From IMG/VR virus record IMGVR_UViG_2740892421_000008, positions 1 to 21,018 of that record: 21,018 nt of DNA; one strand, 5' to 3'. Positions 1-14,577 of this stretch are shown here, piece after piece (position 1 is the stretch's first letter; every line of letters starts with the position of its first letter). The stretch comes from a virus. Its lineage: Duplodnaviria > Heunggongvirae > Uroviricota > Caudoviricetes. The notes under the pieces are model-generated. The model saw only the letters and a program-made list of their open reading frames with translations. It was not told where the DNA came from and did no database searches. Position numbers and translations under genes: made by a program.

Positions 1-823
1 TTGTTTTCGTCTCGTCCATGACGGTTTTGACAGCCTTTGGTGTGGCTGCCAGTTCTTCGCTGTCGTTGTCTGTATCACTACAGAGTTGCACCAGGCCTTT
101 TTGCGTCGTGCTGGCGTTGGTTCCCTTCAGCTCATCAACTATCCGTTGCGCCTCGTCCCTGTGCTGTTTCGCGTTCTGCTCGCTTTTTGCAGCCGATTCG
201 GCGCTGGCTTTTGCCTCACCGGTCAGCGTTGCGGCTTCGTCGAGTTTATCGACCGCTTTCTGGACTATCTTATCGGCATCTTTGACCGCCTGTTCTGCCC
301 GGGCGGCATCCTGTGTGGCAGATAATGCCAGCAGCGCCACCTGATTTTTATCTTCGGCAACGGCTTCTGCATTCTGCTGTACGTTATCCGCCAGCGTCTC
401 GCAGTCGCTCTTAATTTGTTGCGCATCAGCGACATGTTGCCCGGCCTGTCGTTCGCTTTTCGCTGCCGCTTCCGCGCTTTGCTGCGCCTGCGCCACCATT
501 TCCTCAAAGCGTTTCACTACATCCGGCTTTAAATCGCCTTCATCAAGGGCAGTCAGAAAGTCGTTCAGCGTGCCGGGCTTTGAGTCGTCGTAAACCGAAA
601 TATCACCGACACAATATTCTCTTTCAATACATGACCGAAGATAAACGCCATATCTTCCGGTCTGAGCCTCAAATGCATATTCTCCTGCCGGCCCTGTCAC
701 CACTGTTGCCACCGTTTTCATAACCACTGCGGATGTATTCTGTCGGGCTTTCAGAATAATATGGTATCCGGACATGGGGAGTCCCGCACCATCCGTCAGC
801 ACACCCGAAATTAATACAGACAT
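1..823 (-). CDS. stf: Side tail fibre protein, lambda Stf-like (5' part only; 3' end runs off the window)
   Basis: Minus-strand frame from ATG 823..821 has no in-frame stop down to position 1 (checked triplet by triplet). AGGAAA Shine-Dalgarno lies 7 nt upstream, 24 nt after the stop of the upstream gene. Product starts MSVLISGVLTDGAG..., passes through an Ala/Gln/Glu-rich stalk and reaches KGLVQLCSDTDNDSEELAATPKAVKTVMDET, a motif I recognise from lambda Stf and P2 gpH fibres. Absent from the ORF track because it has no stop inside the window. Confidence 0.65.
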   Translation of the reverse strand, partial: MSVLISGVLTDGAGLPMSGYHIILKARQNTSAVVMKTVATVVTGPAGEYAFEAQTGRYGVYLRSCIEREYCVGDISVYDDSKPGTLNDFLTALDEGDLKPDVVKRFEEMVAQAQQSAEAAAKSERQAGQHVADAQQIKSDCETLADNVQQNAEAVAEDKNQVALLALSATQDAARAEQAVKDADKIVQKAVDKLDEAATLTGEAKASAESAAKSEQNAKQHRDEAQRIVDELKGTNASTTQKGLVQLCSDTDNDSEELAATPKAVKTVMDETKT

Positions 824-847
824 GTTTATTTCCTGATTCAGAAAACA

Positions 848-1936
848 TTAACCAAAATAATTGACGCCTTTTTTCTTGCCACTGGCTTTCCCCTTTGCAG
901 AAATATCCGTGGTCAGTGACAGATTCAGCGTAAATCCCTGTCCCGGTACCAGTGAAAACTCCACAGACTCAGCCTGCCAGTGATGGTCCTCACGCACACC
1001 AAATCCCTGCGTGACAAAACGCATCTCCGCCCCTGCTTTCAGCAGTTCCGGCCTGCAGGGCAACGTTATCGTCATCTGGCGTCCGGCTTTCTGCACACGT
1101 TTAACCTTCGACTCTGCACAGTGTTTTGCGGTGCCCTGGTCAGGCTGGGTAAACGGATGCCGCTTATCTGTTGACTCCACGTCAACTTTAACTTCACGTG
1201 TGCGTCCGTCACGGGCATCAAAATACCGGACCCCAACTTTCCCGCTCTTTTTATCCCCCTTCGCACCACCCGCAGCGCCCTGTCGCTCACCTTCACGATA
1301 ATCCCAGTCTGATACCATACCCGGCGTAATGGTTATCTCAGGCGCATTTCTGCCCCCCGTACTCTGTGATGCCCCGTATTCCAGAAATAACCAGTAGCCA
1401 TTGGTCGGTTTACTGGTGGCGCCGTACATACCTGCAATGCGGGACAAGAGAGCAGCATCAGATTCTGATGACTGCATCACCCACGGGATATGAATATCAG
1501 CAAGCACCGATGAGACGCGCGCCACCAGATTATTTTCAGTGGCGATGGTTTTCACCAGGTCGCCCAGTGTGATATCGCTGAAAGCCCGGGTTTTCAGTGC
1601 GGTCACGTCTGCGCCATGTTTTGACGCATTCATGGGGGCTGCGGTGGCATAAATGGTGATCCGGCGGGGAGGACCGCCGCTTGCCACCTGACAGACTGTA
1701 AAGCTGCCTTTATTGACCAGGTTTCCGTTGAATCCCAGTCCCAGCGTTAACACCGCGCCTTTTGGTGGCAGCGCCATCGTCTCACTGAACAGGGTTATCA
1801 TCAGTTCATCGGAGCGCTTTGTGGCAGCACCATTATCGGTATACCGCAGTTCAGCCAGCCCCCGTTTTAGGGCCTTCGTGATATCCTGGCCTTCCGCTGT
1901 CAGGCTGAAATCCGGCTGATATTCATTCAGTCCCAT
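848..1936 (-). CDS. D: Contractile-tail protein D (P2 gpD / late control gene D family)
   Basis: 362-aa ORF at the distal end of the tail block, directly after U and X as in P2-type tail operons; start overlaps the stop of X. Family call is by position and overall pattern, from memory. Confidence 0.8.
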   Translation of the reverse strand: MGLNEYQPDFSLTAEGQDITKALKRGLAELRYTDNGAATKRSDELMITLFSETMALPPKGAVLTLGLGFNGNLVNKGSFTVCQVASGGPPRRITIYATAAPMNASKHGADVTALKTRAFSDITLGDLVKTIATENNLVARVSSVLADIHIPWVMQSSESDAALLSRIAGMYGATSKPTNGYWLFLEYGASQSTGGRNAPEITITPGMVSDWDYREGERQGAAGGAKGDKKSGKVGVRYFDARDGRTREVKVDVESTDKRHPFTQPDQGTAKHCAESKVKRVQKAGRQMTITLPCRPELLKAGAEMRFVTQGFGVREDHHWQAESVEFSLVPGQGFTLNLSLTTDISAKGKASGKKKGVNYFG

Positions 1937-2145
1937 AACTGAAACGTCTCCTTCACTTCCGGTTCATATACCCAGTCCGGCAACACGATTTCCACTCCCG
2001 CCGGATAGACCGGACCAAGGTCAGCCAGTCCGGGATTGGCTTCCAGTACCGCCGCCAGTGACTGGTTAAGCCCGGTACTGCCATAGTGTCTCTGGCAGAT
2101 GTCATCCAGCATATCGCCGTCAGTAGTCCGCCAGTTTTTCGCCAT
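1927..2145 (-). CDS. X: Tail protein X (P2 gpX family)
   Basis: 72-aa ORF whose product (…DICQRHYGSTG…AAVLEANPGLADLGPVYPAGVEIVLPD…) follows the same pattern as P2 gpX (…DAICVRYYGRTEG…VLAANPGLAELGAVLPHGTAVELPD…). Overlaps both neighbours. Confidence 0.8.
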   Translation of the reverse strand: MAKNWRTTDGDMLDDICQRHYGSTGLNQSLAAVLEANPGLADLGPVYPAGVEIVLPDWVYEPEVKETFQLWD

Positions 2146-2614
2146 AGTATTTCAGCTCCAGTGTGAACGTTTTGTTCTTCGGCGCACCGCCGGGAAGAAA
2201 GGACGTGGTGTTATCTGAATAGGCGGTTGCCACGAAATACCCCATCACATCACCTGTGCTCGAGACCAGAAGATGCGGGGCCGGATTGTCATCCACCATC
2301 TGAACCAGTGTATCAAGGGCATCCATTCCCACACCGTCACGAAATCCCGCGTGCGCCATACCTTCAAGGGTTATTGTTCTGGCCCCCTTGCCGGTATACT
2401 GCAGCAGGTCGTTTTTTCCGATAAGCTGTTGTTCATCCCATCGCCATTCCATCGTGCGCTTCATGGCGTTATAAGCAGCAGTATCAATACTGAATTCAAA
2501 CTCACCAAACGACAGCATGACGCGGGAGGCGACATCCGTTAATGATCCCACCGCGTCCCATGCTCCACGCTCAAGCCGGTTTACGCCCCAGCCCAGCAAA
2601 TCCACCATATTCAC
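2120..2614 (-). CDS. U: Tail protein U (P2 gpU-like)
   Basis: 164-aa ORF between tape measure and X/D, the conserved gpU position; start overlaps the tape-measure stop by 4 nt. Sequence similarity to P2 gpU is weak by eye, so the call rests mostly on position and size. Confidence 0.65.
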   Translation of the reverse strand: MNMVDLLGWGVNRLERGAWDAVGSLTDVASRVMLSFGEFEFSIDTAAYNAMKRTMEWRWDEQQLIGKNDLLQYTGKGARTITLEGMAHAGFRDGVGMDALDTLVQMVDDNPAPHLLVSSTGDVMGYFVATAYSDNTTSFLPGGAPKNKTFTLELKYYGEKLADY

Positions 2615-4263
2615 CCCCAGAATGCATCACCATCGGTCATGCGGGAACGCTGACCAAAATTAATATCTCCCAGATTTTTCGTTACCCTGTCTGCCAGTTG
2701 TCCGGCATCCTCGCCGGGCTTCTGAGTGATGTTAAATTCCGCCCGTATCTGATATGTGGGTTTTACTTCCACCTGGCTGACACTGCCGGGTGTATACTGA
2801 AGAGCTGAGAGGGGATCCGAATTACCCTGCCCCGGATCTGCTGCATGAAGTCCATCAATGTAGGTGCGGGATTTCTCTTTTATCGCCTTAAAATCAGGTT
2901 CTTCTTTCGGCCCCAGCAGAGGGTCGAGAAATGCATCAAACTTTTTATCGTCATGATTCCAGGGGAGATAACCGCGGGTGTCTTTATAAGCCTGTACAAC
3001 CTGTTTCGTCAGGTCCGGATTTTGCCTGAGCAGTTCATCAAACCATTCTCCCTGACCGTTTTTCTGCGCCACCGCTCTCGCCAGCTCCGGCGACCCCATT
3101 TTTGCCAGATATTCCAGTACCTCTCGCCGGTCCTGACGCGGATCATCTGCCAGCCCCCACTCAATGGCTTTCTGCGTTATTCCGGCCAGAACTTTTCCAA
3201 ATTTCCACATCCAGGCAGCCATGTCGATCAGCGCCGGCAGGGCATCATCACGAATAAATGCCCGGATTTTTTCCAGCCCACCATTCTTAAACCAGGCCGC
3301 AAGGTCATCCGTCACCTGTTGAATATGTGGGGCAAGTTCATTACCCAGCTGTCCGCTGATTTCATCAATGGAAGAACTCAGAACATTACGGAGATTTGAC
3401 AGTGCCACATGTCCCTGAACTGCGCCATCAGCCCCTGCCTTTGTCACCAGGTTATAGCGTTTCTGCTCACTGATAAGCTCCCGATAAGTTTTCCCTGACA
3501 GACGCATCCAGGTCAGAATTTTATTGGCCTCACCACCGAACAACGCATCTGCCATTCCGGCAGCCACCTGTTCATTCTCTACCTGCAGTAAGCGATCAAA
3601 TAAAAATTCGACCTGCTCCTGGTTACTTTTCCCTGTCATCACCCCGGCTTTCAGTCCCAGTTTGCCAAAGACATCCTGAATGGCCCCTTTATCCGTGGCA
3701 CCATTATCATCGTCAAAAACCTTGTTCCGGTACTCCTCAAACAGATCACCGATGTTTTCACCGTTCAGCCCCATCAGTCGGGCCAGAGAATCCCATGACG
3801 CATAGGTTTCGTAATCCACCCCGTAACTCCGGGCTATCCCTGCCCGCTCTGCCGTTTCCGAATTCCGGTTCAGTACCGCGCCGGCACCTGCTGCCAGCGT
3901 CAACCCGGAACCAACCGAAAGCCCCATCCCGGTTTTAAGAACGGTCCCGCCCCGTCCTTTCCAGCGAGCCAGACGTTCCGCGCGCGCCAGCTTACGGTTA
4001 AATTTGTCCTGCTCCCCGGTGGCATCATGAATTTTTTTGCCCAGCTTTTCATACTGCTTTCGCAGATCAGTAATATCCTGTCCAGCCAGAACGCCAGCCT
4101 GAATTTTTCGTTTCAGTACGTCCTGCTGGCGTGTCAGACGAGCCACTTCCTGTGTTACCCCTGATAATCCGTGCTTCAACCCATCAACCGATTTTTTCCA
4201 CGACGGATCTATCGTGCCTCCGATCCGGATATTCGCTTTAAGGTTATCGCCCACCGTTGCCAT
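2611..4263 (-). CDS. T: Tail tape measure protein
   Basis: 550-aa ORF (MATVGDNL...) immediately downstream of the E/E' chaperone pair, predicted largely helical, with Gly-rich segments and a C-terminal region. Position is conserved in P2-type tails. Confidence 0.8.
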   Translation of the reverse strand: MATVGDNLKANIRIGGTIDPSWKKSVDGLKHGLSGVTQEVARLTRQQDVLKRKIQAGVLAGQDITDLRKQYEKLGKKIHDATGEQDKFNRKLARAERLARWKGRGGTVLKTGMGLSVGSGLTLAAGAGAVLNRNSETAERAGIARSYGVDYETYASWDSLARLMGLNGENIGDLFEEYRNKVFDDDNGATDKGAIQDVFGKLGLKAGVMTGKSNQEQVEFLFDRLLQVENEQVAAGMADALFGGEANKILTWMRLSGKTYRELISEQKRYNLVTKAGADGAVQGHVALSNLRNVLSSSIDEISGQLGNELAPHIQQVTDDLAAWFKNGGLEKIRAFIRDDALPALIDMAAWMWKFGKVLAGITQKAIEWGLADDPRQDRREVLEYLAKMGSPELARAVAQKNGQGEWFDELLRQNPDLTKQVVQAYKDTRGYLPWNHDDKKFDAFLDPLLGPKEEPDFKAIKEKSRTYIDGLHAADPGQGNSDPLSALQYTPGSVSQVEVKPTYQIRAEFNITQKPGEDAGQLADRVTKNLGDINFGQRSRMTDGDAFWG

Positions 4264-4689
4264 AACATCGCTTCCTCTCTTCCGACTCTGCCAGCATCAT
4301 TGCCACAAAATCCGTATACGGCAGCGCCATCACATCTCCGGGAGACCACCCGAACCAGGCACCGGCACGCCGTATCGCTGTCAGGATGCTTTCTTCTTCC
4401 GCCGGACCGGCGGCAGCAAAAAAACATTAAACTGACGCTCCAGGGCCAGGTAATCACACGCTTCCATGTTCATCATGTCTGCCGCGTCCATCCCACACAG
4501 ACCGGCAATCATATCCAGATCAGCCTCTGCTTCCGGTTTGTTACTCCGGCGATGCAACAGACGATCGCGGACAGTGGGCGCACGCATAGTGACGTGCGTG
4601 ATCGTCTGTCCTGATGCGGTGACATACGGCACGGATAACACAATTTCCACGCTGCTGGCAGGAACGCTGTTTTTTTCCGACATAAGCAT
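4244..4689 (-). CDS. E': Tail assembly chaperone E+E' fusion made by programmed -1 frameshift (predicted)
   Basis: My translation of the -1 frame from the slippery site gives a 57-codon extension (AAAGPAEEESILTAIRRAGAWFGWSPGDVMALPYTDFVAMMLAESEERKRCYGNGGR) ending at TAA 4246..4244, 17 nt past the tape-measure ATG. It has no start codon of its own. Predicted fusion is about 145 aa against 142 aa for P2 E+E'. Confidence 0.55.
4381..4689 (-). CDS. E: Tail assembly chaperone E (P2 gpE-like), zero-frame product
   Basis: 102-aa ORF between the tube gene and tape measure. Its 3' end contains a T7G run (minus-strand GTTTTTTTG, + coordinates 4417..4425) 34 nt before the stop. Confidence 0.75.
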   Translation of the reverse strand: MLMSEKNSVPASSVEIVLSVPYVTASGQTITHVTMRAPTVRDRLLHRRSNKPEAEADLDMIAGLCGMDAADMMNMEACDYLALERQFNVFLLPPVRRKKKAS

Positions 4690-4742
4690 CTCCTTTAAAA
4701 AAGAAAAGGCGGCCTGAGCCGCCTGAATGACAGGATCCCGGA

Positions 4743-5261
4743 TTAAACCCGGATGATTTTTTTCAGATCCGCCAGAACATTAACGCCATTAATACGACGT
4801 ACAAACTCCTCCGGAATAATGCAGATGGTTTCCACACCGTCGACAGCCTGGCGGTAATAACTCAGCGACATTTCCACCGTCACCGAGGCGTCTGCCTGCG
4901 ATGTTGCCGGACGTGCATCCGGCGTGATACTGGTGATCATCCCCTGCAGGGTTTCCACCTGTCCGCTGGTCGCATTCCCCACCTGATAGCCCTGGCGGAC
5001 AACAATCTCCGGCGAATAAAGCCCGGCCTGTAATCCCAGCAGCGTCAGCATGGCAACATCATAGCCATAAATCTTAAACGAACAGGTCAGCGCTTCCATG
5101 CCGTCATCCACTGCCACCGGTGCATCCATTGCGCCGGTTTTGATATCCACTGTCGTGATATTAATGGCTGGCGGCGTGTATTCATGCGCCCCCTGAAGGC
5201 GGATCCCGCCAGGAAGAAATAACGCCCATGCGCGCAACAGTTTTTTTTCACCCGTCATCAT
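4743..5261 (-). CDS. FII: Tail tube protein (P2 FII-like)
   Basis: 172-aa ORF directly after the sheath gene with a 4-nt stop/start overlap, the conserved sheath-tube order and a size typical for a contractile-tail tube protein. Confidence 0.85.
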   Translation of the reverse strand: MMTGEKKLLRAWALFLPGGIRLQGAHEYTPPAINITTVDIKTGAMDAPVAVDDGMEALTCSFKIYGYDVAMLTLLGLQAGLYSPEIVVRQGYQVGNATSGQVETLQGMITSITPDARPATSQADASVTVEMSLSYYRQAVDGVETICIIPEEFVRRINGVNVLADLKKIIRV

Positions 5262-6733
5262 ACTGTCAGTTCCTCCAGCGCCAGTTTATTGTTAATCATT
5301 GCCCGCAGTGTCAGGCGCTCCAGTGGTGACTTCGGCCCAAAGTCATAATCAATATACAACTGCCCTGCCGCCAGGGTTTCTGCAGTGTTCAGTTCATCGT
5401 TCAGCCATGCACTGCCACCGTGGATCGCGCCCAGATTTTTAAGCTGACGCATATAGGCATTAATGCTGCCAAGAATGTCGTCTGCCACATCCCGATCAAG
5501 CGGGCGATCGACATAAGGCAGCATGGCCTCCTGGATGCTGTCCTCAATCACATCTGCAGTGCGGCGTACCGGCTCAAAACGCCACTGACTGTGGGATGTG
5601 CACAGACGGTTACCCCAGTGTTTAAAACCGTCATGGCGAATAATGGTGGAGATATTTTCCATGTTCAGCAGGTTTGCCGTGCAGTTCTGCTCCCCGAGAA
5701 TAAACGTATCCACCTGCTCCAGACCGGTGATATTCATCACGTCCTGGTTTGATTTGGACCACCACCACCCTTTTTCGTAATCAATACGGGCACGCAGCCC
5801 GGCAGCACGAGCCGAATATGGACGAAATATCGTTTGCCCGCTGTCATCCGTCACTGACACGCGCGGACGCAGCAGCTCCACACGCCCACCAAATGACGCG
5901 CGCCGCTGAACCACATCCTGCGGCGTTGCCATTGAGGGCGAGTCAATATAGGCCACAGCCCGCAGCTTCGCGGCATACGTTTCCAGCGCCTTTGCCACGC
6001 CATCATCCTCACTGTACCCCGTGGCGATGAGGATGCGCGGTTGATAGCCTGTCACGCCCTTACTTTCTGTCAGCGCCTCCATGGCCTGAATCACCGCCGC
6101 ACGCTGTTCGGCCTCTTTCGCCTTTGTTTTACTTTCTGCGCGCACCACAATCACCAGCGCCCCAGTCTGGTCAAAAATATCTCGCAGGGCCGGGTATAAT
6201 GTTCCGGCTGTGCCCAGTTTCCCGGCCTGAGTAATGGCCCCTGCCACCACCACTGGTGTATTGACCGGGAACGCCTCATCTTCTCCGCCGGATAACGTCA
6301 GGCTGAACGGCAACACCACTTTATTTTCAGCGTCTCCTGCATTCAGGGTGCTGACAGCCGCCGTCACAGGCGAATCCCCCAGCGCATTCACCACTTCAGT
6401 CACACGGTCCGCCGTGGCGTTAACCTGGCTGTGTTCGTCCGTCCCCAGTGTTATCGTCAGGGTCGTACCTTTCAGCGAGGCCACTGTCTGCGCATTTTGT
6501 TCTGTGGCAGCCACAGCAACAACCGAAATCTTATTACCGGCCCGACCTTCCTGTTTCGCCGTGAAATCCAGCGCCGTTCCCAGCAGCCAGGAGCCGGCTG
6601 TGCCGGAAGCGCACACACCACCAGAGGCGTCCGGCGCTGTCCCCACCAGGCCAATCACTGCCGTGGAGATGGTCTGCACGGCAACCGTGCCTGTCGTCAG
6701 TTCAATGGTTTCAACACCATGTAATCCGGACAT
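5258..6733 (-). CDS. FI: Tail sheath protein (P2 FI-like)
   Basis: 491-aa ORF. The C-terminal two thirds (…RILIATGYSEDDG…RHDGFKHWGNRLCTS…LAAGQLYIDYDFGPKSPLERLTLR…) match the P2 FI sheath pattern (…RDGFRFWGNRTCS…[24 protein letters not shown]…). Strong GGGAGAAA Shine-Dalgarno upstream. Confidence 0.9.
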   Translation of the reverse strand: MSGLHGVETIELTTGTVAVQTISTAVIGLVGTAPDASGGVCASGTAGSWLLGTALDFTAKQEGRAGNKISVVAVAATEQNAQTVASLKGTTLTITLGTDEHSQVNATADRVTEVVNALGDSPVTAAVSTLNAGDAENKVVLPFSLTLSGGEDEAFPVNTPVVVAGAITQAGKLGTAGTLYPALRDIFDQTGALVIVVRAESKTKAKEAEQRAAVIQAMEALTESKGVTGYQPRILIATGYSEDDGVAKALETYAAKLRAVAYIDSPSMATPQDVVQRRASFGGRVELLRPRVSVTDDSGQTIFRPYSARAAGLRARIDYEKGWWWSKSNQDVMNITGLEQVDTFILGEQNCTANLLNMENISTIIRHDGFKHWGNRLCTSHSQWRFEPVRRTADVIEDSIQEAMLPYVDRPLDRDVADDILGSINAYMRQLKNLGAIHGGSAWLNDELNTAETLAAGQLYIDYDFGPKSPLERLTLRAMINNKLALEELTV

Positions 6734-6746
6734 ACATTTCTCCCAT

Positions 6747-6768
6747 AAAAAAACCGCCCTCAGGCGGT
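6747..6768 (-). terminator. Candidate intrinsic terminator between the fibre-assembly gene and the sheath gene
   Basis: Minus-strand transcript reads ACCGCC-UGAG-GGCGGU followed by UUUUUUU (+ strand aaaaaaaccgccctcaggcggt). It sits 20 nt after the fibre-assembly stop and 13 nt before the sheath ATG. Confidence 0.45.
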
Positions 6769-6787
6769 CAGATGATTAACTTCTTTT

Positions 6788-7333
6788 TCAGGTATTTTGT
6801 GGCTGCTCAGGCCAGCTAATATTGTTGTATGTGGTCTTATCCGTAATAGCGCTGAAATCCATCGCCTGCAGCGATTTCGCGTAAATGCGGTACGCTTTCA
6901 GCTTCTCCCTGTCTTCGTCACTGATTAATCCCAGCAGCAGGTCTTTTCCCCATTCGCTGGTCATGATGCTGACCTGTTTTAACAGTGCATCACGCTCATC
7001 TTCCGCTTTAAGTTTGTAGTCAAAAACAAATTCATCATTGCGATAAAACCAGTAACCCGACGCCTCAATGCGACGATTGGCGGTAATATCCGGTAACTCA
7101 ATCACGCTTTTATTTTCCGGGCAGATTGAGGTGATGTCTTTTCCGACCCAGACCACCTCGCCAGTTTCAACATAAATAACTTTCAGAGTGTCTGGCTGAA
7201 ATTTTTCCTGGGCTTCGTGCCATTCCTGACCATCATCGGAGAACAGCCACAATAAAAATTTATGCTGTCGCGCCAGCTGGTATTGCTCAATTGTTTTAGG
7301 GTTTTGTGCCGTAATATTTTTTAAGTGCATCAT
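6788..7333 (-). CDS. tfa: Tail fibre assembly protein (Tfa / P2 gpG-like)
   Basis: 181-aa ORF immediately downstream of fibre gene H, with the size and C-terminal character (…YNNISWPEQPQNT) of enterobacterial phage fibre-assembly chaperones. Confidence 0.8.
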   Translation of the reverse strand: MMHLKNITAQNPKTIEQYQLARQHKFLLWLFSDDGQEWHEAQEKFQPDTLKVIYVETGEVVWVGKDITSICPENKSVIELPDITANRRIEASGYWFYRNDEFVFDYKLKAEDERDALLKQVSIMTSEWGKDLLLGLISDEDREKLKAYRIYAKSLQAMDFSAITDKTTYNNISWPEQPQNT

Positions 7334-7335
7334 AA

Positions 7336-8553
7336 TTACAAACTCGCTACATTCCGCCAGACCCCATTAATCAGAACCTGCACCGGGCGGGCATTGGCCC
7401 AGTCCATACTTTCACCACCGTCAAGACCGCTGATAAGGTGACCTGATGGTGCATTCCCGCCACGCCCAATACCAATGGCACCGCCCAGACGCACATCCTG
7501 TACACCGCCTGTTTTGGTTTGATAGCGGGCATCAAAGTTTCCGTAGTCTGACGGTGTTACCCGACCTGAAACATTCACTGCCCGGTTACTTTGTAACGCG
7601 CCATTCTGAAAACGGAATACGTGCTGACCATTGGCATAAACATCCAGCAGGCCGTCACCATTCTGTTTCAGGCCGGTATCGTTATCTCCGAAAGCAATTG
7701 AGTTTCCACCCAGCGCGTTCTGAACGCCGATACCCAGCGCACCATTGACCTGAGAACCGCCGCCAACAGACACTTTATGCGACATGGATATTTCACCCGT
7801 CCGCAGATTAATAGTGAACGGTCGAAGTGGACCAATATCGCCATTCTCGCCCTGACCTTCACTGGTAGGGATAAGGTGCAGGCACTCTTCCGAACGACGA
7901 AAAATCAGACCAAAGGCTTCGTTGAAAATCCTCAGCGCATTAACACCACGGATTTTCAGTTCCCCGGTCATGGTGTCACCATCACGCTGAACGGCACTTT
8001 TTGCCTTGTCCACCGTAGGTTTTAATCCGAGGTTTTCAACAGCCTCATCCTTGTCTTCCACATCCGAAAGATTCTTTTTTCGTTGCAGATAGCGTCTGTC
8101 TCCGATTTCCTGAGTAATAATGGCCCTGTCCGGATCAACTTCCAGCACCACGTTTTGTGCGTGCGTCAGCCCAAGAACCAGCGTCAGAATAACTTCCTTG
8201 ATAACAGAGTCCGTCTGGTCTGGTAAAAAGGTGTCCGGATAACGCCCGTATGCGATAAGCGTACCACTGTCGCTGATCATCCCCAGTTCACGAAGGGTTT
8301 TACCGGGGTATGATTTGCAGTCAATCACAACATCCCCGCTGATGAATCCCTCCTCCACCGCGCCGTCCGAAAAGGGTTCCTGTCCGAATTCGCCGTACAA
8401 TGATGTCATTGCTGCCATTTCATCCGGCGTGGATGGCAATGCCTGCCCGCCCCCGTCACCAAGCAGAACATGCCGGACGGTCACGGTTTGCCCGTTCTGA
8501 TATGCTGCTTCAATTTCTGCAGCGCCGGACGTTGTCAGAATCAGTCCATTCAT
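7336..8553 (-). CDS. H: Tail fibre protein (P2 gpH-like)
   Basis: 405 aa. The N-terminus (…TTSGAAEIEAAY…HVLLGDGGG…) parallels P2 gpH (…TTAGAAKLAAAT…MAVGDGGG…), and the C-terminal region (ALGGNSIAFGDNDTGLKQNGDGLLDVYANGQHVFRFQNGA…) parallels the gpH C-terminus (ALGGSSIVLGDNDTGFKQNGDGILDVYANSQRVFRFQNGV…). Confidence 0.85.
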   Translation of the reverse strand: MNGLILTTSGAAEIEAAYQNGQTVTVRHVLLGDGGGQALPSTPDEMAAMTSLYGEFGQEPFSDGAVEEGFISGDVVIDCKSYPGKTLRELGMISDSGTLIAYGRYPDTFLPDQTDSVIKEVILTLVLGLTHAQNVVLEVDPDRAIITQEIGDRRYLQRKKNLSDVEDKDEAVENLGLKPTVDKAKSAVQRDGDTMTGELKIRGVNALRIFNEAFGLIFRRSEECLHLIPTSEGQGENGDIGPLRPFTINLRTGEISMSHKVSVGGGSQVNGALGIGVQNALGGNSIAFGDNDTGLKQNGDGLLDVYANGQHVFRFQNGALQSNRAVNVSGRVTPSDYGNFDARYQTKTGGVQDVRLGGAIGIGRGGNAPSGHLISGLDGGESMDWANARPVQVLINGVWRNVASL

Positions 8554-9140
8554 ACACCTGCCTCACTCTGCCCGCCAGTGGGCACTGTCTTTGTTATCAC
8601 ACCGTTACTTCTGATTTTTTCCGTCGCCATCACATAACCGTAACAAAATCCCCGCCCTGTGCTGTTCCCGTAAACGTGAATACTGAACCAGCTGCGCAGA
8701 TTTTTGGCACGGAGCACCGCATGCTTCAGATCCTGATGATCATTCATCAGCACCGGTAAATCCTTCTGCTCCACGTTCAGACGAAAGGTATACGGCTCCC
8801 CGGGTGGGGTCTGCTCATACCACTCAACAATCTGCGATCGGAAGGGACTGTCAGCCAGCGATGCCATCAGCGCCGCTTTAGTCCCTCTGTGGCGGTGGAT
8901 GTAAGCAGCACGTTTTATCGCAGACCTTTTTTCCGTCTCCGTCCAGTGTTCATTCCAGGTATCCACCGCCATTTCCCAGGCCAGCCATGGCAGCAATTCA
9001 GCAGGACATAAATCGGGATTTTTCACATAGCGGATCAGGCAGACCGCTATGTCTGACAGCATATCTCCGGCGACACAGTCCACCACCCGCTCTGCCAGAC
9101 TGGCACTGACCGGCAGTATGCTCCTGATATCGTCATTCAT
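8550..9140 (-). CDS. I: Baseplate/tail protein I (P2 gpI-like)
   Basis: 196 aa; …NPDLCPAELLPWLAWEMAVDTWNEHW… matches the P2 gpI pattern …NPDTCPANLLPWLAWAFSVDRWDEKW…. Overlaps both J and H. Confidence 0.85.
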   Translation of the reverse strand: MNDDIRSILPVSASLAERVVDCVAGDMLSDIAVCLIRYVKNPDLCPAELLPWLAWEMAVDTWNEHWTETEKRSAIKRAAYIHRHRGTKAALMASLADSPFRSQIVEWYEQTPPGEPYTFRLNVEQKDLPVLMNDHQDLKHAVLRAKNLRSWFSIHVYGNSTGRGFCYGYVMATEKIRSNGVITKTVPTGGQSEAGV

Positions 9141-10047
9141 CAGTTGTCTCCACCTTATTCAGCGTTATCTTACGGCACCACGGTGCCTGCCCCATCGCAG
9201 GAACGATATCACTGCCCGGAGAGGTCAGATTCACCGTAATCACCCCGGTCTGGTGAAGGGCACCATCCATGCCAGAACGGGATGCCACCGAGCCAATCCG
9301 GTGGACGCTGTCAGTGTATGACTGCAGCGCCTTGCGGGCATTTGCCATAACCAGTTCACCATCCAGTCCGTAGGGAATATGAATATCCGCCACCACATCG
9401 TAGGGAATAATTTCTGCCGTCCGGACACTGACAAAATCCGTCAGGGGACGGGTTTCATCATCACAGACTGATGCTGCCACCTTATCCAGCAGGGGTTGTG
9501 ATGCAGTGCCATTTCCGGAGCGGGATAACACATAAAGAAAAACCCGGCCTTCCTGCGAATGTGTTTCCGGTCCGTAAGCCTTCACATCCAGCACATCAGG
9601 ATCAGCACTTTGTGCAAAATAGTGATACGCATTTTTCGCGCCGGCGGTGCTGAGCCGTGCCCATGACAACTGGATACGTTCGCGAAAAGCGTCATCATCT
9701 TCATACACCGCCGGCGTGGGCGGAATGGTGCTGTCGTCTGCCGGGGTAATAACCAGCCGCTGAACCTGATAATTCGCGCCAACCTGATCCAGATCGTTCC
9801 CACCGGCACTGGCAAGCAGTACAGCACGGACAGCATCATTTATCTGCTGGCGCATCAGCGCCACCCGATAAGCCAGCGCCTCTGCCCATTTATACGCGGG
9901 ATCAGATTCCACCAGAGCCGAAAACAACGTATCCAGCTCCTGATACTTCGCCACTATCTGAGTGACCAGCACAGCGGTGTCCGGCACCTCCACCGCATCC
10001 GGTACTGGTATCGCGGACAGATCAATAATTGCCTGAGACGTTGCCAA
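9133..10047 (-). CDS. J: Baseplate assembly protein J (P2 gpJ-like)
   Basis: 304 aa; …LVITPADDSTIPPTPAVYEDD…RERIQLS… closely matches P2 gpJ (…LTITPADDSTIPPTPAVMESD…RLRIQQA…). Confidence 0.88.
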   Translation of the reverse strand: MATSQAIIDLSAIPVPDAVEVPDTAVLVTQIVAKYQELDTLFSALVESDPAYKWAEALAYRVALMRQQINDAVRAVLLASAGGNDLDQVGANYQVQRLVITPADDSTIPPTPAVYEDDDAFRERIQLSWARLSTAGAKNAYHYFAQSADPDVLDVKAYGPETHSQEGRVFLYVLSRSGNGTASQPLLDKVAASVCDDETRPLTDFVSVRTAEIIPYDVVADIHIPYGLDGELVMANARKALQSYTDSVHRIGSVASRSGMDGALHQTGVITVNLTSPGSDIVPAMGQAPWCRKITLNKVETTDE

Positions 10048-10378
10048 TTTTTATCTCCTCGAGTCGAATCGTGTCCTGAGTTTCGTTATTCACCCCGACA
10101 AGCGTCAGCCACGCACTTCCTTCTCCTGTCCACGTCACTTCCACCCGCCGGAGAGTCAGACGGGGTTCCCAGCGTTCAAGGGCGGTTACCGTTTCACGGA
10201 CAATTCTCACCCGCGTGAAATCATCCTGTGGGTTATCAAGCAGACTGAAAAGTCTGCTGCCGTATTCCCTGAGCAGGACCCGGCTGCCGACCGGTGTTGA
10301 CAAAATATCAGTGACGGACTGGCGCAGATGTTCGTTACCGTGCAGATATCTGCCGGTGGCTGAATCAATACCAATCAT
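10022..10378 (-). CDS. W: Baseplate assembly protein W (P2 gpW / gp25-like)
   Basis: 118 aa; …DILSTPVGSRVLLREYGSRLFSLLDNPQ… parallels P2 gpW …DILRTPVGSRVMRRDYGSLLASMIDQPQ…. Located between V and J. Confidence 0.85.
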   Translation of the reverse strand: MIGIDSATGRYLHGNEHLRQSVTDILSTPVGSRVLLREYGSRLFSLLDNPQDDFTRVRIVRETVTALERWEPRLTLRRVEVTWTGEGSAWLTLVGVNNETQDTIRLEEIKIGNVSGNY

Positions 10379-10411
10379 GTTGTTTATTCCGGAAAAAGAA
10401 CTGAAAGGGGA

Positions 10412-11035
10412 TTACATTTGCTGACCAGGCTGTCCGGTGCTGCCACCACTGTCGCCCCGGTGATTGTGACCGTTATAGACAATTCTGATTTGACTCATCG
10501 TTCCGTGATAATCAGAAACCTCACCACCGACCATCAGATCCGCCTTAACCACCGCCTCAGCATTCATGGTTGCTTTACCCTGTACGGTCAGGGTATCTGT
10601 GATTTCTACCGGACCGTCCAGGGTTCCCCTGCCTGTAATTTTATAGCTGCCGCCTTCAGCCAGCGTGATGGACAGGACATTAGCCTGACGGTCGTAACGG
10701 ATTTCCGTTCCGGTATCAAACAAAATAACATGTTCGTATTCACTGCCCTCAGGGACAGGAATGGCGTCAATATTGGGCCCCGGATACACCCGACCGTTAC
10801 GCAGATCGCCCGCCTCCGATATCACTGTAACGGCATCTCCGGGGGACGGATAATTACTGACCTGCATGTAGCGCCCGGACTGTACCTGAATCCAGGGCAA
10901 CGGAGGCGAAAGCACATCCCCGATATCCACCCGAACCATCACCGGGCTACCCGGGATCACCTCGTCCACCACGCCGCGACGGACCATGTCCGCCACCCTG
11001 CGGCGTAACTCTGCCACTTCATCCGCCAGACTCAT
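10412..11035 (-). CDS. V: Baseplate spike / assembly protein V (P2 gpV-like)
   Basis: The track ORF 10412..11329 runs through the upstream gene in another frame; the homologous protein starts at the internal ATG 11035..11033 (MSLADEVAELRRRVADMVRRG…) and ends …HGTMSQIRIVYNGHNHRGDSGGSTGQPGQQM. Size (about 207 aa) and the C-terminal H-x-H…GDSGG pattern match P2 gpV. Confidence 0.8.
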   Translation of the reverse strand: MSLADEVAELRRRVADMVRRGVVDEVIPGSPVMVRVDIGDVLSPPLPWIQVQSGRYMQVSNYPSPGDAVTVISEAGDLRNGRVYPGPNIDAIPVPEGSEYEHVILFDTGTEIRYDRQANVLSITLAEGGSYKITGRGTLDGPVEITDTLTVQGKATMNAEAVVKADLMVGGEVSDYHGTMSQIRIVYNGHNHRGDSGGSTGQPGQQM

Positions 11036-11585
11036 CACCGGTGCCCTCCGATTTCCAGATAAGACGATAATCCTGCTCATGTCTCTTGCCGGTTTCCGGT
11101 ACTTTACCCAGCCAGACTTCCTGTAACGGCGCACCTGCCGGAACCGCAAACGGATCTTCGCCGACCGGAATGTCCTGTTCAAAAGAGACACGGAAAACGA
11201 TGTAGTCGTCCAGCAGCCGGTCGAAGGTATCCACCTCAGCATCGATAAAAACCGCCGGATCAACGTTATCCAGCCCGAACGTGGCTCCCTCAATCCAGTC
11301 AGATAAATCCATCGCGAGACAACGGGCAAAAATCTGCGGTTTTGGCACGTTTTCCGTCTTCCCGGCCCGGTCTGTCACCACAAACAGATCACATTTCAGC
11401 GTGACCCGCGTTTGCCCGTCGGCAAAATGAGCCTTGTCCCAGCCCGGTACATCCACAAACACAGCAGGCGTCACCAGTTGCGTCACTTTTTCCGGGTACT
11501 CATCGGCATCTTCCACCCAGGGAATTTGTTTCAGACTGTCAATCACCGCCTGATGCCAGGCGCCCATCATCAATGGCTCCATCAC
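11019..11585 (-). CDS. Hypothetical structural protein at the head-tail junction (putative tail completion / terminator-position protein)
   Basis: 188-aa ORF in the late operon, acidic, translationally coupled on both sides (start overlaps the upstream stop, stop overlaps the gpV start). No family recognised by eye. Confidence 0.5.
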   Translation of the reverse strand: MMEPLMMGAWHQAVIDSLKQIPWVEDADEYPEKVTQLVTPAVFVDVPGWDKAHFADGQTRVTLKCDLFVVTDRAGKTENVPKPQIFARCLAMDLSDWIEGATFGLDNVDPAVFIDAEVDTFDRLLDDYIVFRVSFEQDIPVGEDPFAVPAGAPLQEVWLGKVPETGKRHEQDYRLIWKSEGTGDESGG

Positions 11586-12304
11586 TCCAGCCCCTTAAAT
11601 ACCCGGAATTTCAGTTCATGCTCAAAATTTTTCAGGATCAGTACTTCCGCATCCGGAAAAACAAAATCCTCTATACGGTTCAGCATGGCTTCATAAATAT
11701 CAATTTCCGCTTCACGCACCCTCCGTCGTCCGGATGTCTGTCGGATCAGTATCATTTTCCTTTTTGATATACGTCCGTTACGATTTTCCGCTTCGAACTG
11801 GTTGATAAAGGCATCATCCGTTGACCAGGTGCTGACAGGCAGGGATTCCCCGGCAGGTTTAAAACGGATCTCCCGTGCCTTCCTGCGGTGAGAAGCTGGT
11901 GCAAAACGCCCCCGCTCATCGCGCAACTGATGGCGTTCGCCGCGTCGTCCCCCACTGATGCGTCCGCGCAGATCGCGTACTTTGATGGCGTTCAGACCGA
12001 ACCATACCTTCGCCTCATCAAACTCATCACCGTTACGACGAATGATAAAATTATGCAGAACACGCTTTTTGATCATTTTCTGACTGCGTGGGGCAACCTG
12101 TTTTTTAAACTCTGCCATAGCCTTCATCCGCAGTGCAGACGCGGCTCTTTTCAGCGCCACGCCCCAGGCTTTACGGATCTGACTTTTTGACCCACCCAGT
12201 TTAGCGATAATTTTCAGCACCTCATCTTCATCAATATCGACGACGAGGTTTCGTGCCAGCCGTCGCTGCCGGGCACTGCTTCGTTCATGCTCTCTGACTG
12301 CCAT
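11582..12304 (-). CDS. Hypothetical basic (Arg/Lys-rich) structural protein at the head-tail junction (putative head-tail connector / tail completion)
   Basis: Long ORF on the operon strand between FII-like and gpV. I place the start at ATG 12304..12302 (MAVREHERSS…), giving a 20-nt overlap with the FII stop; the track's start at 12364 would give an 80-nt overlap. The strongly basic composition is reminiscent of lambda gpZ, but no convincing alignment by eye. Confidence 0.45.
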   Translation of the reverse strand: MAVREHERSSARQRRLARNLVVDIDEDEVLKIIAKLGGSKSQIRKAWGVALKRAASALRMKAMAEFKKQVAPRSQKMIKKRVLHNFIIRRNGDEFDEAKVWFGLNAIKVRDLRGRISGGRRGERHQLRDERGRFAPASHRRKAREIRFKPAGESLPVSTWSTDDAFINQFEAENRNGRISKRKMILIRQTSGRRRVREAEIDIYEAMLNRIEDFVFPDAEVLILKNFEHELKFRVFKGLE

Positions 12305-12692
12305 AACGTTTACTCGGTCGTTCCGGTGCAGCAGGTGTATTTCTCCCGGGCTCTCCACGCGCAAGGGTGATGGTAATCACCCCCTGACCCGCAGTGCCTG
12401 ACTCATCCCAGCCGGGATCGACTACCTGATAGGGCTCGCCGTGGATCATGACCCTGTCATATTTTTTCAGACCGGCGGCCCATGCGCTCCGGGTAAATAA
12501 CACGGGTGCAGTATCACGAATTTCGCCGCTGCCAGTGTTCATCCCGGTGTTATCTGCCGGGGCATCAAAAACGGCACGGATTTTTCTTTCCGTGCCGCCC
12601 GGATATATGCTGATTTCCGTCCCCATCGTATCCAGGATGATGTCATCCGCATCACTCATGGCCTGATCGAACAGATTATCGAACATCATCAC
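12285..12692 (-). CDS. FII: Head-tail joining protein, lambda FII-like
   Basis: N-terminus MMMFDNLFDQAMSDADDIILDTMGTE…RAVFDAP matches lambda gpFII MADFDNLFDAAIARADETIRGYMGTS…RGVFDDP. The ORF is 135 aa against 117 aa in lambda, so the 3' end is uncertain. Confidence 0.75.
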   Translation of the reverse strand: MMMFDNLFDQAMSDADDIILDTMGTEISIYPGGTERKIRAVFDAPADNTGMNTGSGEIRDTAPVLFTRSAWAAGLKKYDRVMIHGEPYQVVDPGWDESGTAGQGVITITLARGEPGRNTPAAPERPSKRYGSQRA

Positions 12693-13054: not shown

Positions 13055-13073
13055 CACATCTCTCCCGTGCGCT

Positions 13074-13099: not shown

Positions 13100-13104
13100 C
13101 CGTC

Positions 13105-14133: not shown

Positions 14134-14202
14134 AATTTATTTTCCTTCAGAAACACAAACGGGCCGCATCGCGACCCGTTTTTTCAGTTAATCACTTCAC
14201 CA

Positions 14203-14538: not shown

Positions 14539-14577
14539 TTTTTCAGTCTCCTGATTTATCTGAATTCCGGATACCGC

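What the first reader, a model, noticed from the sequence alone, without database searches (positions are those of the whole stretch)
1..823. Second fibre gene (lambda Stf-like) encoded after tail gene D, in addition to the P2 gpH-like fibre
Seen directly: downstream of the gpD-like gene an ORF with a lambda Stf-like N-terminus (MSVLISGVLTDGAG…), an Ala/Gln/Glu-rich stalk and the conserved fibre motif …LAATPKAVKTVMDET runs off the window. The tail block already carries a gpH-like fibre (7336..8553) with its own assembly chaperone. Inference: the virion may carry two fibre types with different anchoring domains, one baseplate-anchored and one Stf-type, or the Stf-like gene may be a host-range cassette acquired by recombination at the end of the tail operon. 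The Ala/Ser-rich + strand ORFs in 18..344 are antisense artefacts of this gene.
Basis: partly seen in the sequence, partly recalled or inferred. Interest (0 to 1): 0.45.

Follow-up and report, generated by a model that had tools for sequence, protein, structure and literature searches.

The report
Accessory side tail fibre gene cassette
The window's left edge holds the start of an intact lambda-Stf-type accessory tail fibre gene which, with its own chaperone gene, is a swappable two-gene unit at the end of a Rac-family E. coli prophage with a contractile tail: a real but largely ordinary example of a known kind.

Summary
A minus-strand ORF starts at ATG 823, 24 nt after the gpD stop, and runs off the window. 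It has a full PF08400 N-domain (4e-57), a predicted ~150-residue helix and a PF03406 repeat.

In the source genomes (100% identical) the gene is intact at 667 aa. Its stop overlaps the start of a DUF4376 gene, a family with experimental support as fibre chaperones. The pair is the last phage block before attR/uspF.

The same N-domain clade was found on:
- this P2-order tail (26 viral contigs; junction in 75 of 5,426 E. coli genomes);
- Rac-SA53-type tails;
- phiP27-type tails;
- a fourth contractile backbone;
- lambda-type prophages, as a second Stf.

It is always at the end of the late genes, so "after gene D" reflects the P2 gene order. Only fibre genes are shared between these backbones. 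The collar domain is under purifying selection (dN/dS about 0.085).

Where it docks on a contractile tail is unresolved. Solved structures put the homologous domain at the tail tip in lambda and at the neck in myovirus XM1, so I favour the neck.

Known kind, new member; modest interest.

The parts
542..823 (-). Stf-type fibre, residues 1-94: Ig-like 'collar' (anchoring) domain
   Evidence: PF08400 covers 1-134/134, E 4e-57. Sequence match to the Ur-lambda StfN chain 9e7m, E 4e-17. The AF2 model has six strands in residues 2-77 with pLDDT about 90; Foldseek TM 0.84 to 9e7m and 0.63 to the XM1 gp40 NTD 7kjk. dN/dS 0.085 among 24 alleles.
119..526 (-). Stf-type fibre, residues ~100-235: Ala/Gln/Glu-rich helical shaft (predicted trimeric coiled coil)
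   Evidence: The AF2 model shows one continuous helix over residues 100-250, with pLDDT 82-96 over residues ~101-200, falling to 73-86 over 201-230 and below 60 beyond. The layout matches the lambda Stf proximal coiled coil and the XM1 gp40 100-residue helix. The trimer state is inferred.
2..112 (-). Stf-type fibre, residues 238-274: phage tail fibre repeat (…LAATPKAVKTVMDET…); the gene continues 393 codons beyond the window edge
   Evidence: PF03406, E 4.7e-15. The same region matches Mu gpS chains 5yvq/8ju3. Full gene is L001 10820-12823, 667 aa, intact.
824..847 (-). 24-nt spacer between the gpD stop and the Stf ATG, with AGGAAA at 829-834; left recombination joint of the cassette
   Evidence: Sequence read. 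Homology to Rac-SA53 starts at window 830. The spacer is conserved in the gpD-adjacent viral contigs. No terminator-like site lies between D and Stf.
848..1936 (-). gpD-like tail protein, the last gene of the P2-order tail block and upstream neighbour of the cassette
   Evidence: PHROG 52, 7.5e-95; PF05954 weak. PGAP annotates it 'phage late control protein'. Nearest deposited phages are Hafnia yong2 at 50% and Citrobacter Chris1 at 48%.
7336..8553 (-). gpH-type baseplate fibre (the other fibre)
   Evidence: PF12571 N-terminal domain. Residues 159-405 are 99.6% identical to phiP27 L54.
6788..7333 (-). Caudo_TAP tail fibre assembly protein for the gpH-type fibre
   Evidence: PF02413, 2e-22. 94% identical to phiP27 L55.

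Best explanation
Window 1-823 is the 5' 41% of an intact 667-aa accessory side tail fibre gene.

Protein layout:
- an N-terminal Ig-like collar domain of the lambda Stf type (residues 1-94);
- a short linker;
- a long helical shaft, presumably a trimeric coiled coil;
- a tail-fibre repeat and hinge region;
- a distal ~270-residue part with no Pfam, NCBIfam or solved-structure sequence match, which I take to be the receptor-binding part.

Its stop codon overlaps the start of a 188-aa DUF4376 gene, which I take to be its dedicated chaperone or cap.

The two genes form a mobile host-range cassette. It sits at the very end of the late operon in temperate enterobacterial phages, just before the attachment site. 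Here the carrier is a Rac-family prophage at ttcA/uspF with a lambda-type head and a P2-order contractile tail. The cassette therefore follows gpD, and the phage also encodes a separate gpH/gpG baseplate fibre.

Proposed working (inferred): the fibre trimerises with help from the DUF4376 protein. Its three N-domains splay out on flexible linkers and join a ring clamped around a six-fold part of the tail. The distal domain gives fast, reversible first contact with a surface receptor. The gpH fibres and baseplate then trigger contraction.

On a sheathed tail the lambda docking site (tube/tip junction) is not exposed. I therefore favour docking at the neck, on the head-completion and tail-terminator rings, as in myovirus XM1.

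Confidence by part: the gene, cassette and accessory-fibre reading is about 0.85; the neck location about 0.45. The stated confidence is for the reading as a whole, without insisting on the neck.
For: Shown:
- Domain matches.
- Intact 667-aa ORF followed by a DUF4376 gene, then attR/uspF. The stop and start overlap as ATGA.
- The cassette has sharp boundaries. Homology to Rac-SA53 runs from 7 nt before the ATG through attR. Homology to a copy at another attachment site (tRNA-Ser/hya) ends at about the DUF4376 stop.
- Only fibre and chaperone genes are shared with phiP27 and Rac-SA53.
- In 80 viral contigs the N-domain clade sits at the end of five backbone types. A DUF4376 gene follows in most of the loci where sequence continues. 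Fibre length varies from 405 to 1047 aa.
- The gpD-Stf junction occurs in 75 of 5,426 complete E. coli genomes.
- Collar-domain dN/dS is 0.085 at dS 0.28 within the gpD-adjacent lineage.
- Modelled fold: TM 0.84 to the lambda StfN collar and 0.63 to the XM1 gp40 neck anchor.

From papers:
- Twelve lambda StfN domains form a collar at the gpV/gpM junction. Stf speeds adsorption 10-30x and is non-essential (PMC12617516).
- The XM1 gp40 NTD binds neck proteins gp4 and gp5 (PMC10457771).
- A-1(L) neck fibres anchor through the gp82 N-terminal domain, residues 1-125 (PMC10966104); my model matches the 125-residue chain 8keg_a only weakly.
- DUF4376 proteins V22 gp27 and A5 gp9 are fibre chaperones or caps (PMC7289586, PMC10579305).
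Against: - There is no virion, expression or adsorption data for this phage or any relative that I could find.
- This particular prophage copy looks decayed: IS1 between Q and terS, no annotated lysis genes, and replication pseudogenes.
- No neck, sheath, tube or baseplate protein is shared between the backbones that carry near-identical N-domains. No docking partner can therefore be named.
- The window's connector proteins have no sequence match to XM1 gp4/gp5.
- The same N-domain clade (79-89% identical) also occurs in lambda-type siphovirus prophages as a second Stf. The clade is therefore not specific to contractile tails, and the neck inference rests on two solved myoviruses only.
- The A-1(L) and Bxb1 fold matches are weak (E about 5e-3 to 7e-3).
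- The distal domain's fold and receptor are unknown. I could not model it because it lies outside the window.
Confidence: 0.75

Rival explanations
1. [quoted passage not shown] The site would be around the top of the baseplate or the first sheath/tube ring, the closest equivalent to the lambda collar at the tube/tip junction. The virion would then carry two fibre sets at the baseplate.
For: By sequence and modelled fold the N-domain is closer to lambda StfN (44% identity, TM 0.84) than to XM1 gp40 (24%, TM 0.63). The same clade is found on lambda-type tails, where a tip collar is the known site. A distal position suits receptor search by fibres of 405-1047 aa.
Against: In a contractile tail the tube/hub junction is enclosed by sheath and baseplate (established knowledge of P2/Mu-type tails). 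The one solved myovirus with a clearly homologous domain (XM1) carries it at the neck, and A-1(L), only a weak fold match, also anchors its neck fibres through an N-terminal domain. No lambda gpV or gpM homologue is present; every tail ORF in the window maps to a P2-type family.
Confidence: 0.25
2. The cassette is a passenger. It is carried and perhaps expressed at the end of the late operon but not incorporated into this phage's virion. It persists because it recombines in and out of prophages and works only on other backbones, such as lambda-type tails.
For: - It is bounded by sharp recombination joints and moves between unrelated backbones.
- Degraded prophages that have lost the whole tail still keep it (L028, L038).
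- This copy's prophage is decayed.
- No shared docking partner can be identified.
- Purifying selection could be imported with alleles that are selected elsewhere.
Against: - The specific gpD-Stf joint is conserved in 26 viral contigs and 75 complete genomes, and at two or more attachment sites.
- 24 distinct collar alleles in that lineage show dN/dS 0.085.
- The spacer keeps a ribosome-binding site, and there is no terminator before the gene.
- The same double-fibre layout recurs on four contractile backbones. That is hard to explain if it never functions there.
Confidence: 0.12
3. The Stf-type protein does not dock on the tail itself. It branches off the other fibre or its retained chaperone, giving a branched fibre as in some T5-like and other lytic phages (recalled from memory, not checked here).
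For: Every carrier I examined also encodes a Caudo_TAP-dependent fibre: gpH-type, or lambda Stf plus Tfa. The fibre genes are the only genes common to all backbones.
Against: In both solved cases the homologous N-domain binds ring-shaped tail or neck proteins, not another fibre. The gpH-type fibres differ in their shared parts: Rac-SA53 tail1 is only 74% identical to the window gpH distal part, and the Tfa proteins only 40%. In the window the two cassettes are separated by about 6 kb, so they are not a fixed unit.
Confidence: 0.05

Closest known systems
Lambda side tail fibre Stf (Ur-lambda), PDB 9e7m/9mgh
   Same: The N-terminal PF08400 collar domain is homologous (E 4e-17; 44% identity in the structural alignment; TM 0.84). 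It is followed by a linker, a long coiled coil, the PF03406 repeat (…LAATPKAVK.VMDET…) and a hinge-region motif. It is encoded at the end of the tail genes. The likely role as a non-essential adsorption accelerator is inferred from lambda.
   Different: - The carrier has a contractile P2-order tail with no gpV, gpM or gpJ.
- I found no detectable similarity to the distal part of lambda Stf.
- The partner is a DUF4376 protein, not Tfa.
- The lambda docking site is not available on a sheathed tail.
phiP27 L56/L57 and Rac-SA53 tail3/tail4 (also 'Actinobacillus' phage vB_Apl-pPE4 gp69/gp70)
   Same: These hold the same cassette: a PF08400 fibre plus a DUF4376 partner as the last late genes before the attachment site. 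The distal 270 aa are 93-95% identical and the partner 88-97% identical. Each phage also has a gpH-type fibre plus Caudo_TAP.
   Different: Their tails are different contractile modules with no BLASTP-detectable similarity to the window's. In them the Stf gene follows the Tfa gene through a conserved spacer. In the window it follows gpD through a different spacer. Fibre lengths differ: 490 and 1061 aa against 667 aa.
Vibrio myovirus XM1 collar spike gp40 (PDB 7kjk)
   Same: The Ig-like N-domain is homologous (sequence E 1.5e-8 over residues 1-198; Foldseek E 2.4e-7) and is followed by a ~100-residue trimeric coiled coil. The carrier is a myovirus with a simple baseplate.
   Different: The distal part of gp40 is a tailspike-like domain. 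Its neck partners gp4 and gp5 have no detectable sequence relatives among the window's connector proteins. Neck docking is shown for XM1 and only inferred here.
E. coli K-12 Rac prophage stfR-tfaR-pinR
   Same: Same prophage family and attachment site (ttcA/uspF). The side-tail-fibre gene occupies the same terminal slot.
   Different: K-12 Rac has a lambda-type remnant (ynaA, lomR) upstream, with a Tfa chaperone and a Pin invertase downstream. The window element has a P2-order tail upstream and a DUF4376 gene downstream, with no invertase.
Alteromonas phage V22 gp26/gp27 and A5 gp8/gp9 fibre-chaperone pairs
   Same: A fibre gene is followed directly by a DUF4376 protein, and the module is shared between unrelated phage morphotypes.
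   Different: The fibres themselves are unrelated: they have no PF08400 anchor. Chaperone dependence has been tested there and not here.

Membership tests
PF08400 / lambda Stf-type side tail fibres | N-terminal PF08400 domain above the gathering threshold | tested here: met
   192 bits against a cut-off of 26.6, covering 1-134 of 134 positions; 189.9 bits on the full-length protein.
PF08400 / lambda Stf-type side tail fibres | N-domain fold: six-stranded beta sandwich followed by a helix, as in Ur-lambda StfN | tested here: met
   AF2 model has strands at 2-8, 21-29, 33-42, 48-54, 56-63 and 70-77, then a helix at 86-89. Foldseek top hit is 9e7m_Ta, TM 0.84, rmsd 3.3 over 93 columns.
PF08400 / lambda Stf-type side tail fibres | Long coiled-coil shaft and a PF03406 repeat after the anchor | tested here: met
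   Helix over residues 100-250 in the model. PF03406 at E 4.7e-15. The trimeric state is not testable with a monomer model.
PF08400 / lambda Stf-type side tail fibres | Tfa (Caudo_TAP)-dependent distal part with a tfa gene downstream, as in lambda stf-tfa | tested here: not met
   The downstream gene is PF14301 DUF4376, not PF02413. The distal 390 aa have no Pfam or NCBIfam match. Membership therefore holds for the anchor and shaft, not for the whole lambda Stf architecture.
PF08400 / lambda Stf-type side tail fibres | Docking as a collar on the gpV/gpM junction of a non-contractile tail | tested here: not met
   The carrier's tail genes are sheath, tube, E, T, U, X, D, V, W, J and I. No lambda-type tube or tip genes are present. 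The actual docking site is not testable here.
Myovirus neck / collar fibres (XM1 gp40 type) | Ig-like N-domain homologous to the gp40 NTD, followed by a trimeric coiled coil | tested here: met
   phmmer E 1.5e-8 over residues 1-198 against 1-189. Foldseek E 2.4e-7, TM 0.63.
Myovirus neck / collar fibres (XM1 gp40 type) | Neck partners related to XM1 gp4 (head completion) and gp5 (tail terminator) | tested here: inconclusive
   Neither the window's 240-aa Neck1-type protein nor its 183-aa protein has a PDB sequence match to XM1 chains. There is only a weak match to pyocin collar PA0615, E 0.087. Fold-level comparison was not done.
Myovirus neck / collar fibres (XM1 gp40 type) | Physical location at the head-tail junction | not testable with these tools
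   This needs a virion structure or complex prediction.
DUF4376 fibre-chaperone modules (V22 gp27 type) | A DUF4376 protein encoded directly downstream of the fibre gene | tested here: met
   PF14301 at 9.7e-17. Stop and start overlap as ATGA. Co-occurrence across most of the complete loci in 80 viral contigs.
DUF4376 fibre-chaperone modules (V22 gp27 type) | Fibre maturation or capping depends on the DUF4376 protein | not testable with these tools
   Shown only for the Alteromonas phages.
P2 gpH/gpG baseplate fibre (the other fibre in the window) | Tail-collar fibre N-terminal domain next to gpI/gpJ, with a Caudo_TAP gene downstream | tested here: met
   PF12571 at 5.5e-15, PF02413 at 2e-22, PF09684 (gpI) and PF04865 (gpJ).

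The most novel reading that the evidence does not exclude
The Stf collar domain may be a near-universal, low-specificity 'clamp'. The same N-domain clade (74-100% identical in the survey) sits on four contractile-tail backbones with no BLASTP-detectable similarity, or only about 50% identity, to one another, and also on lambda-type non-contractile tails. That could mean a ring of these domains self-assembles around any six-fold tube, terminator or neck ring of suitable diameter, needing only loop contacts. If so, one fibre cassette can be bolted onto very different virions, at the neck on sheathed tails and at the tip on unsheathed ones. The cassette would then be a ready-made, backbone-independent host-range add-on.
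Probability: 0.2. Interest if true: 0.6.

Novelty: new member of a known kind. Interest (0 to 1): 0.3.

Why it matters
On its own this is a routine annotation. RefSeq already names the gene 'prophage tail fiber N-terminal domain-containing protein', and phiP27 and Rac-SA53 carry the same double-fibre layout.

What is worth keeping is the comparative picture:
- An Stf-type fibre plus a DUF4376 chaperone behaves as a self-contained unit. It always sits last in the late operon and hops between unrelated tail types in pig-, ruminant- and human-associated E. coli, including backbones of the Stx2e phage phiP27 and the LT-II phage Rac-SA53.
- That bears on host-range prediction for toxin-converting prophages.
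- It also bears on engineering fibres that are independent of the baseplate.
- It poses a concrete structural question that recent lambda and XM1 structures make testable: where does a lambda-type collar sit on a sheathed tail?

Tried and rejected
1. Shared-partner test. I expected the backbones that share the N-domain to share a neck protein. BLASTP of the window proteome against the phiP27 and Rac-SA53 structural proteins found only fibre and chaperone genes in common. No docking partner can be named from sequence.

2. PDB sequence searches with the window's Neck1-type (240 aa) and unknown (183 aa) connector proteins. There was no match to XM1 gp4/gp5, only a weak PA0615 hit at E 0.087.

3. 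The idea that the window's N-domain clade is specific to contractile tails. It looked plausible from the deposited phages, where only 4 of 310 records exceed 80% identity and the carriers I examined (phiP27, Rac-SA53, pPE4) have contractile-type tail genes. I dropped it when viral contigs L026 and L036 showed the clade as a second Stf behind lambda J-lom-stf(-tfa).

4. The idea that the gene is debris of a resident Rac prophage. This is rejected: the same U-X-D-Stf-DUF4376 block lies at a tRNA-Ser/hya site in STEC711.

5. NCBIfam gave no hits for Stf, DUF4376, gpH, gpG or gpD.

6. Literature. I found no paper discussing the second fibre of phiP27-like or Rac-SA53-like phages. The phiP27 genome paper is not held.

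7. Modelling the distal domain. The full-length protein was not among the proteins returned and lies outside the window, so only residues 1-274 could be modelled.

8. The promoter/terminator scan found nothing above shuffle expectation.
Full report
**1. The observation**

Translating window 1-823 on the minus strand gives 274 codons without a stop. The sequence begins MSVLISGVLTDGAG and ends …EELAATPKAVKTVMDETKT at the window edge.

The ATG at 823 lies 24 nt after the stop of a 362-aa gpD-like ORF (848-1936). An AGGAAA motif lies 5 nt upstream of the ATG.

- Pfam places PF08400 (Prophage tail fibre N-terminal) on residues 1-134, covering the whole model at E 4e-57.
- PF03406 (phage tail fibre repeat) covers residues 238-273 at E 4.7e-15.
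- PHROG tail-fibre families match at up to 1e-154.
- The plus-strand ORFs in 18-344 have no family match.
- The other fibre is also as described: 7336-8553 carries PF12571, and 6788-7333 is a Caudo_TAP assembly protein.

**2. Source and the missing part of the gene**

Window 1-2200 is 100% identical to the chromosomes of E. coli STEC409 and ETEC1746.

In ETEC1746 the gene is an intact 2004-bp ORF of 667 aa (WP_033566595), annotated 'prophage tail fiber N-terminal domain-containing protein'. A 188-aa DUF4376 protein follows, then 538 bp, then the host genes uspF, ompN and nifJ. The fibre's stop codon overlaps the DUF4376 start as ATGA.

The element is a Rac-family prophage at ttcA, with intR, xisR, ralR, recET, kilR, sieB, ydaT and Q. 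This copy looks partly decayed:
- an IS1 lies between Q and terS;
- no lysis genes are annotated;
- the replication genes are pseudogenised.

In K-12 the same slot holds stfR-tfaR-pinR, behind a lambda-type remnant.

**3. The carrier phage**

The window encodes a lambda-type head followed by a P2-order tail.

- Head: lambda-family portal, S49 protease, gpD decoration protein, gpE capsid protein, FI, and a gpFII-like head-closure protein.
- Connector region: a Neck1/tail-completion protein and an unknown 183-aa protein.
- Tail, in P2 order: V, W, J, I, H, G, sheath, tube, E, T, U, X, D.

No deposited phage shares the tail at DNA level. Only lambda- and phage-21-like head genes match (75-77%), plus the phiP27 fibre genes (99.6%).

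The nearest gpD proteins among deposited phages are in Hafnia phage yong2 (50%) and Citrobacter phage Chris1 (48%). Both use the order V-sheath-tube-E-T-U-X-D-W-J-I-H-tfa and have a single fibre, with no Stf.

**4. The cassette and its boundaries**

phiP27 (L54/L55 then L56/L57), Rac-SA53 (tail1/tail2 then tail3/tail4) and the Rac-SA53-type record vB_Apl-pPE4 all end with two consecutive pairs. The first is a gpH-type fibre plus Caudo_TAP. The second is a PF08400 fibre plus a DUF4376 protein.

BLASTP of the window's proteome against their structural proteins finds only these four genes in common:

| Window protein | Match | Identity |
|---|---|---|
| Stf residues 1-469 | Rac-SA53 tail3 | 82% |
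| Stf distal part | Rac-SA53 tail3 / phiP27 L56 | 93-95% |
| DUF4376 | tail4 / L57 | 97% / 88% |
| gpH residues 159-405 | phiP27 L54 | 99.6% |
| gpG | phiP27 L55 | 94% |

No head, neck, sheath, tube or baseplate protein is shared.

At DNA level:
- homology to Rac-SA53 starts at window 830, 7 nt before the ATG, and runs through the DUF4376 gene and attR into uspF;
- homology to a second copy of the same tail at a tRNA-Ser/hya site in STEC711 covers U-X-D-Stf-DUF4376 and stops at about the DUF4376 stop.

The two genes are therefore the terminal block of a mobile phage genome, not debris of a resident Rac.

**5. Survey**

A scan of viral contigs with residues 1-135 returned 124 relatives. Eighty loci were kept, 74-100% identical to the query. 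I classified them with marker proteins:

| Context | Loci |
|---|---|
| Window backbone, gpD directly upstream, same spacer | 26 |
| Rac-SA53-type | 29 (plus 4 partial) |
| phiP27-type | 9 (plus 1 partial) |
| Fourth contractile backbone, ~50% identical to the window tail, yong2 order (…U-X-D-W-J-I-H-G then Stf and DUF4376) | 6 |
| Lambda-type context | 3 |
| Deletion remnants (L028, L038) | 2 |

In the lambda-type loci L026 and L036, J and Lom are followed by a lambda-type Stf (with an annotatable Tfa ORF in L026) and then by a second, window-clade Stf. L029 is assigned to this group only because its upstream spacer is identical to L026's. L036 also has the DUF4376 gene.

In every complete case the fibre and, where sequence continues, usually a DUF4376 gene are the last late genes. 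'After gene D' therefore follows from the P2 gene order and has no special link with gpD.

Fibre length varies from 405 to 1047 aa overall, and from 405 to 1046 aa within the window backbone alone. That is the signature of host-range shuffling.

The gpD-Stf junction (window 700-1000) occurs in 75 of 5,426 complete E. coli genomes. Among 24 collar-domain alleles of that lineage, mean dN/dS is 0.085 at dS 0.28. The anchor is therefore kept by selection, with the caveat that alleles may be imported from other backbones.

**6. How it probably works**

An AF2 model of residues 1-274 has mean pLDDT 80. It shows a six-stranded sandwich (residues 2-77), a short helix, and one long helix over residues 100-250.

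Foldseek against the PDB gives:
- first, the Ur-lambda Stf collar domain (9e7m; E 4.5e-8; TM 0.84);
- second, the N-domain of XM1 gp40 (7kjk; E 2.4e-7; TM 0.63);
- weaker hits to the A-1(L) chain 8keg_a (E 5e-3) and to Bxb1 tail-tip chains in 9d93 (E 7e-3).

The sequence searches agree: 9e7m at E 4e-17 and 7kjk at E 1.5e-8.

What the papers report:
- In Ur-lambda, twelve StfN domains from four trimers form a collar around the gpV/gpM junction. The fibre binds OmpC, speeds adsorption 10-30 fold and is non-essential (PMC12617516).
- In the myovirus XM1, six gp40 trimers sit on the neck. Their N-domains bind head-completion protein gp4 and tail terminator gp5 (PMC10457771).
- In A-1(L), the N-terminal domain of gp82 (residues 1-125) anchors five neck fibres (PMC10966104).
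- DUF4376 proteins are experimentally supported fibre chaperones or transient caps in Alteromonas phages V22 and A5 (PMC7289586, PMC10579305).

From this I infer a trimeric accessory fibre, matured or capped by the DUF4376 protein. Splayed N-domains anchor it in a ring on a six-fold part of the virion. It provides fast, reversible first contact, and the gpH fibres trigger contraction.

On a sheathed tail the lambda site is buried, so I favour the neck at about 0.45. Docking above the baseplate remains possible at about 0.25. A passenger gene that is not assembled has about 0.12, and a branched fibre about 0.05.

**7. What limits the inference**

- No docking partner can be named. The backbones that carry near-identical N-domains share no other structural protein.
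- The window's connector proteins have no sequence match to XM1 gp4/gp5.
- The clade also sits on lambda-type tails. Either the collar is a low-specificity clamp or some copies are not assembled.
- I found no paper on the second fibre of phiP27-like or Rac-SA53-like phages.
- The distal domain could not be modelled, because it lies outside the window and the full-length protein was not returned.

**8. Verdict**

- the downstream partner is a DUF4376 chaperone-type gene, not tfa or an invertase;
- the position after gpD is incidental.

It is a new member of a known kind. The gene is already annotated as such in RefSeq, and the same layout is present in phiP27 and Rac-SA53.

Interest is modest at 0.3. 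It rests on the backbone-independent mobility of the cassette and on the open, now testable question of where a lambda-type collar sits on a contractile tail.

Noticed in passing
window ~6851-8080 (gpG and the distal two-thirds of gpH): This stretch is 99.6% identical at DNA level to phiP27 L54/L55, while the rest of the two tails has no detectable similarity. It looks like a very recent exchange of the baseplate-fibre tip and chaperone between a Mu-like and a P2-order tail. Both fibre tips in this phage are therefore phiP27-like.
   Followed up: partly
window 848-20263 (whole structural operon): Hybrid virion module: a lambda-type head (portal, S49 protease, gpD decoration, gpE capsid, FI, FII-like) is joined to a P2-order contractile tail inside a Rac-family prophage. 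No deposited phage shares the tail at DNA level. The nearest gpD proteins (about 50%) are in Hafnia phage yong2 and Citrobacter phage Chris1, which use a different gene order.
   Followed up: partly
just right of the window end; L090 7681-8378 and 8847-11044 (NZ_CP122727 2533680-2537043): In ETEC1746 an IS1A and three opposite-strand hypothetical genes lie between the Q antiterminator and terS, where lysis genes would be expected. No holin or endolysin is annotated, and the replication genes are pseudogenes. This prophage copy is probably defective although its structural ORFs are intact.
   Followed up: no
L026 2910-10768; L036 2498-12346 (IMG/VR contigs): These are lambda-type prophages with two Stf-type genes in tandem: J, Lom, a lambda-type Stf (followed by a 193-aa Tfa-like ORF in L026 only), then a second Stf of the window's N-domain clade. 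L036 also has a DUF4376 partner. How two collar-forming fibres share one tail is unexplained.
   Followed up: partly
L028 8318-10909; L038 9139-11368: These are degraded prophages. In L028 the terminase gene is fused to the 3' end of gpD. In L038 the head protease gene is fused to Stf at about residue 20. The whole tail is deleted in both, yet the Stf cassette survives at the prophage end.
   Followed up: no
40 nt upstream of the Stf ATG in loci L037-L089: Wherever a Tfa gene precedes the Stf gene, the spacer …CTTCCTGATTTAATTTATCGCGAGAAAAACTATG is nearly invariant. This holds across phiP27-type, Rac-SA53-type and fourth-backbone phages. The gpD-Stf spacer is different but equally conserved within its own lineage. 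These may be preferred recombination joints.
   Followed up: partly
PP818812.1 (L009): The record 'Actinobacillus phage vB_Apl-pPE4' is a Rac-SA53-type genome whose fibre gene is 88% identical at DNA level to this E. coli prophage. The host label looks doubtful.
   Followed up: no
protein database names, (e.g. P0011, P0015, P0026, P0048): Several PF08400 fibre fragments are named 'shikimate transporter, partial' or 'M14 carboxypeptidase N/E family protein' in public records. These are mis-annotations. Many representatives are contig-end partials, which shows that these fibre genes often break assemblies.
   Followed up: no
window 848-1936: The gpD-like protein scores below the Pfam gathering cut-off for PF05954 (23 vs 30.1 bits). 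PGAP names close relatives variously as 'late control protein' or 'contractile injection system protein, VgrG/Pvc8 family'. It is a divergent gpD.
   Followed up: no
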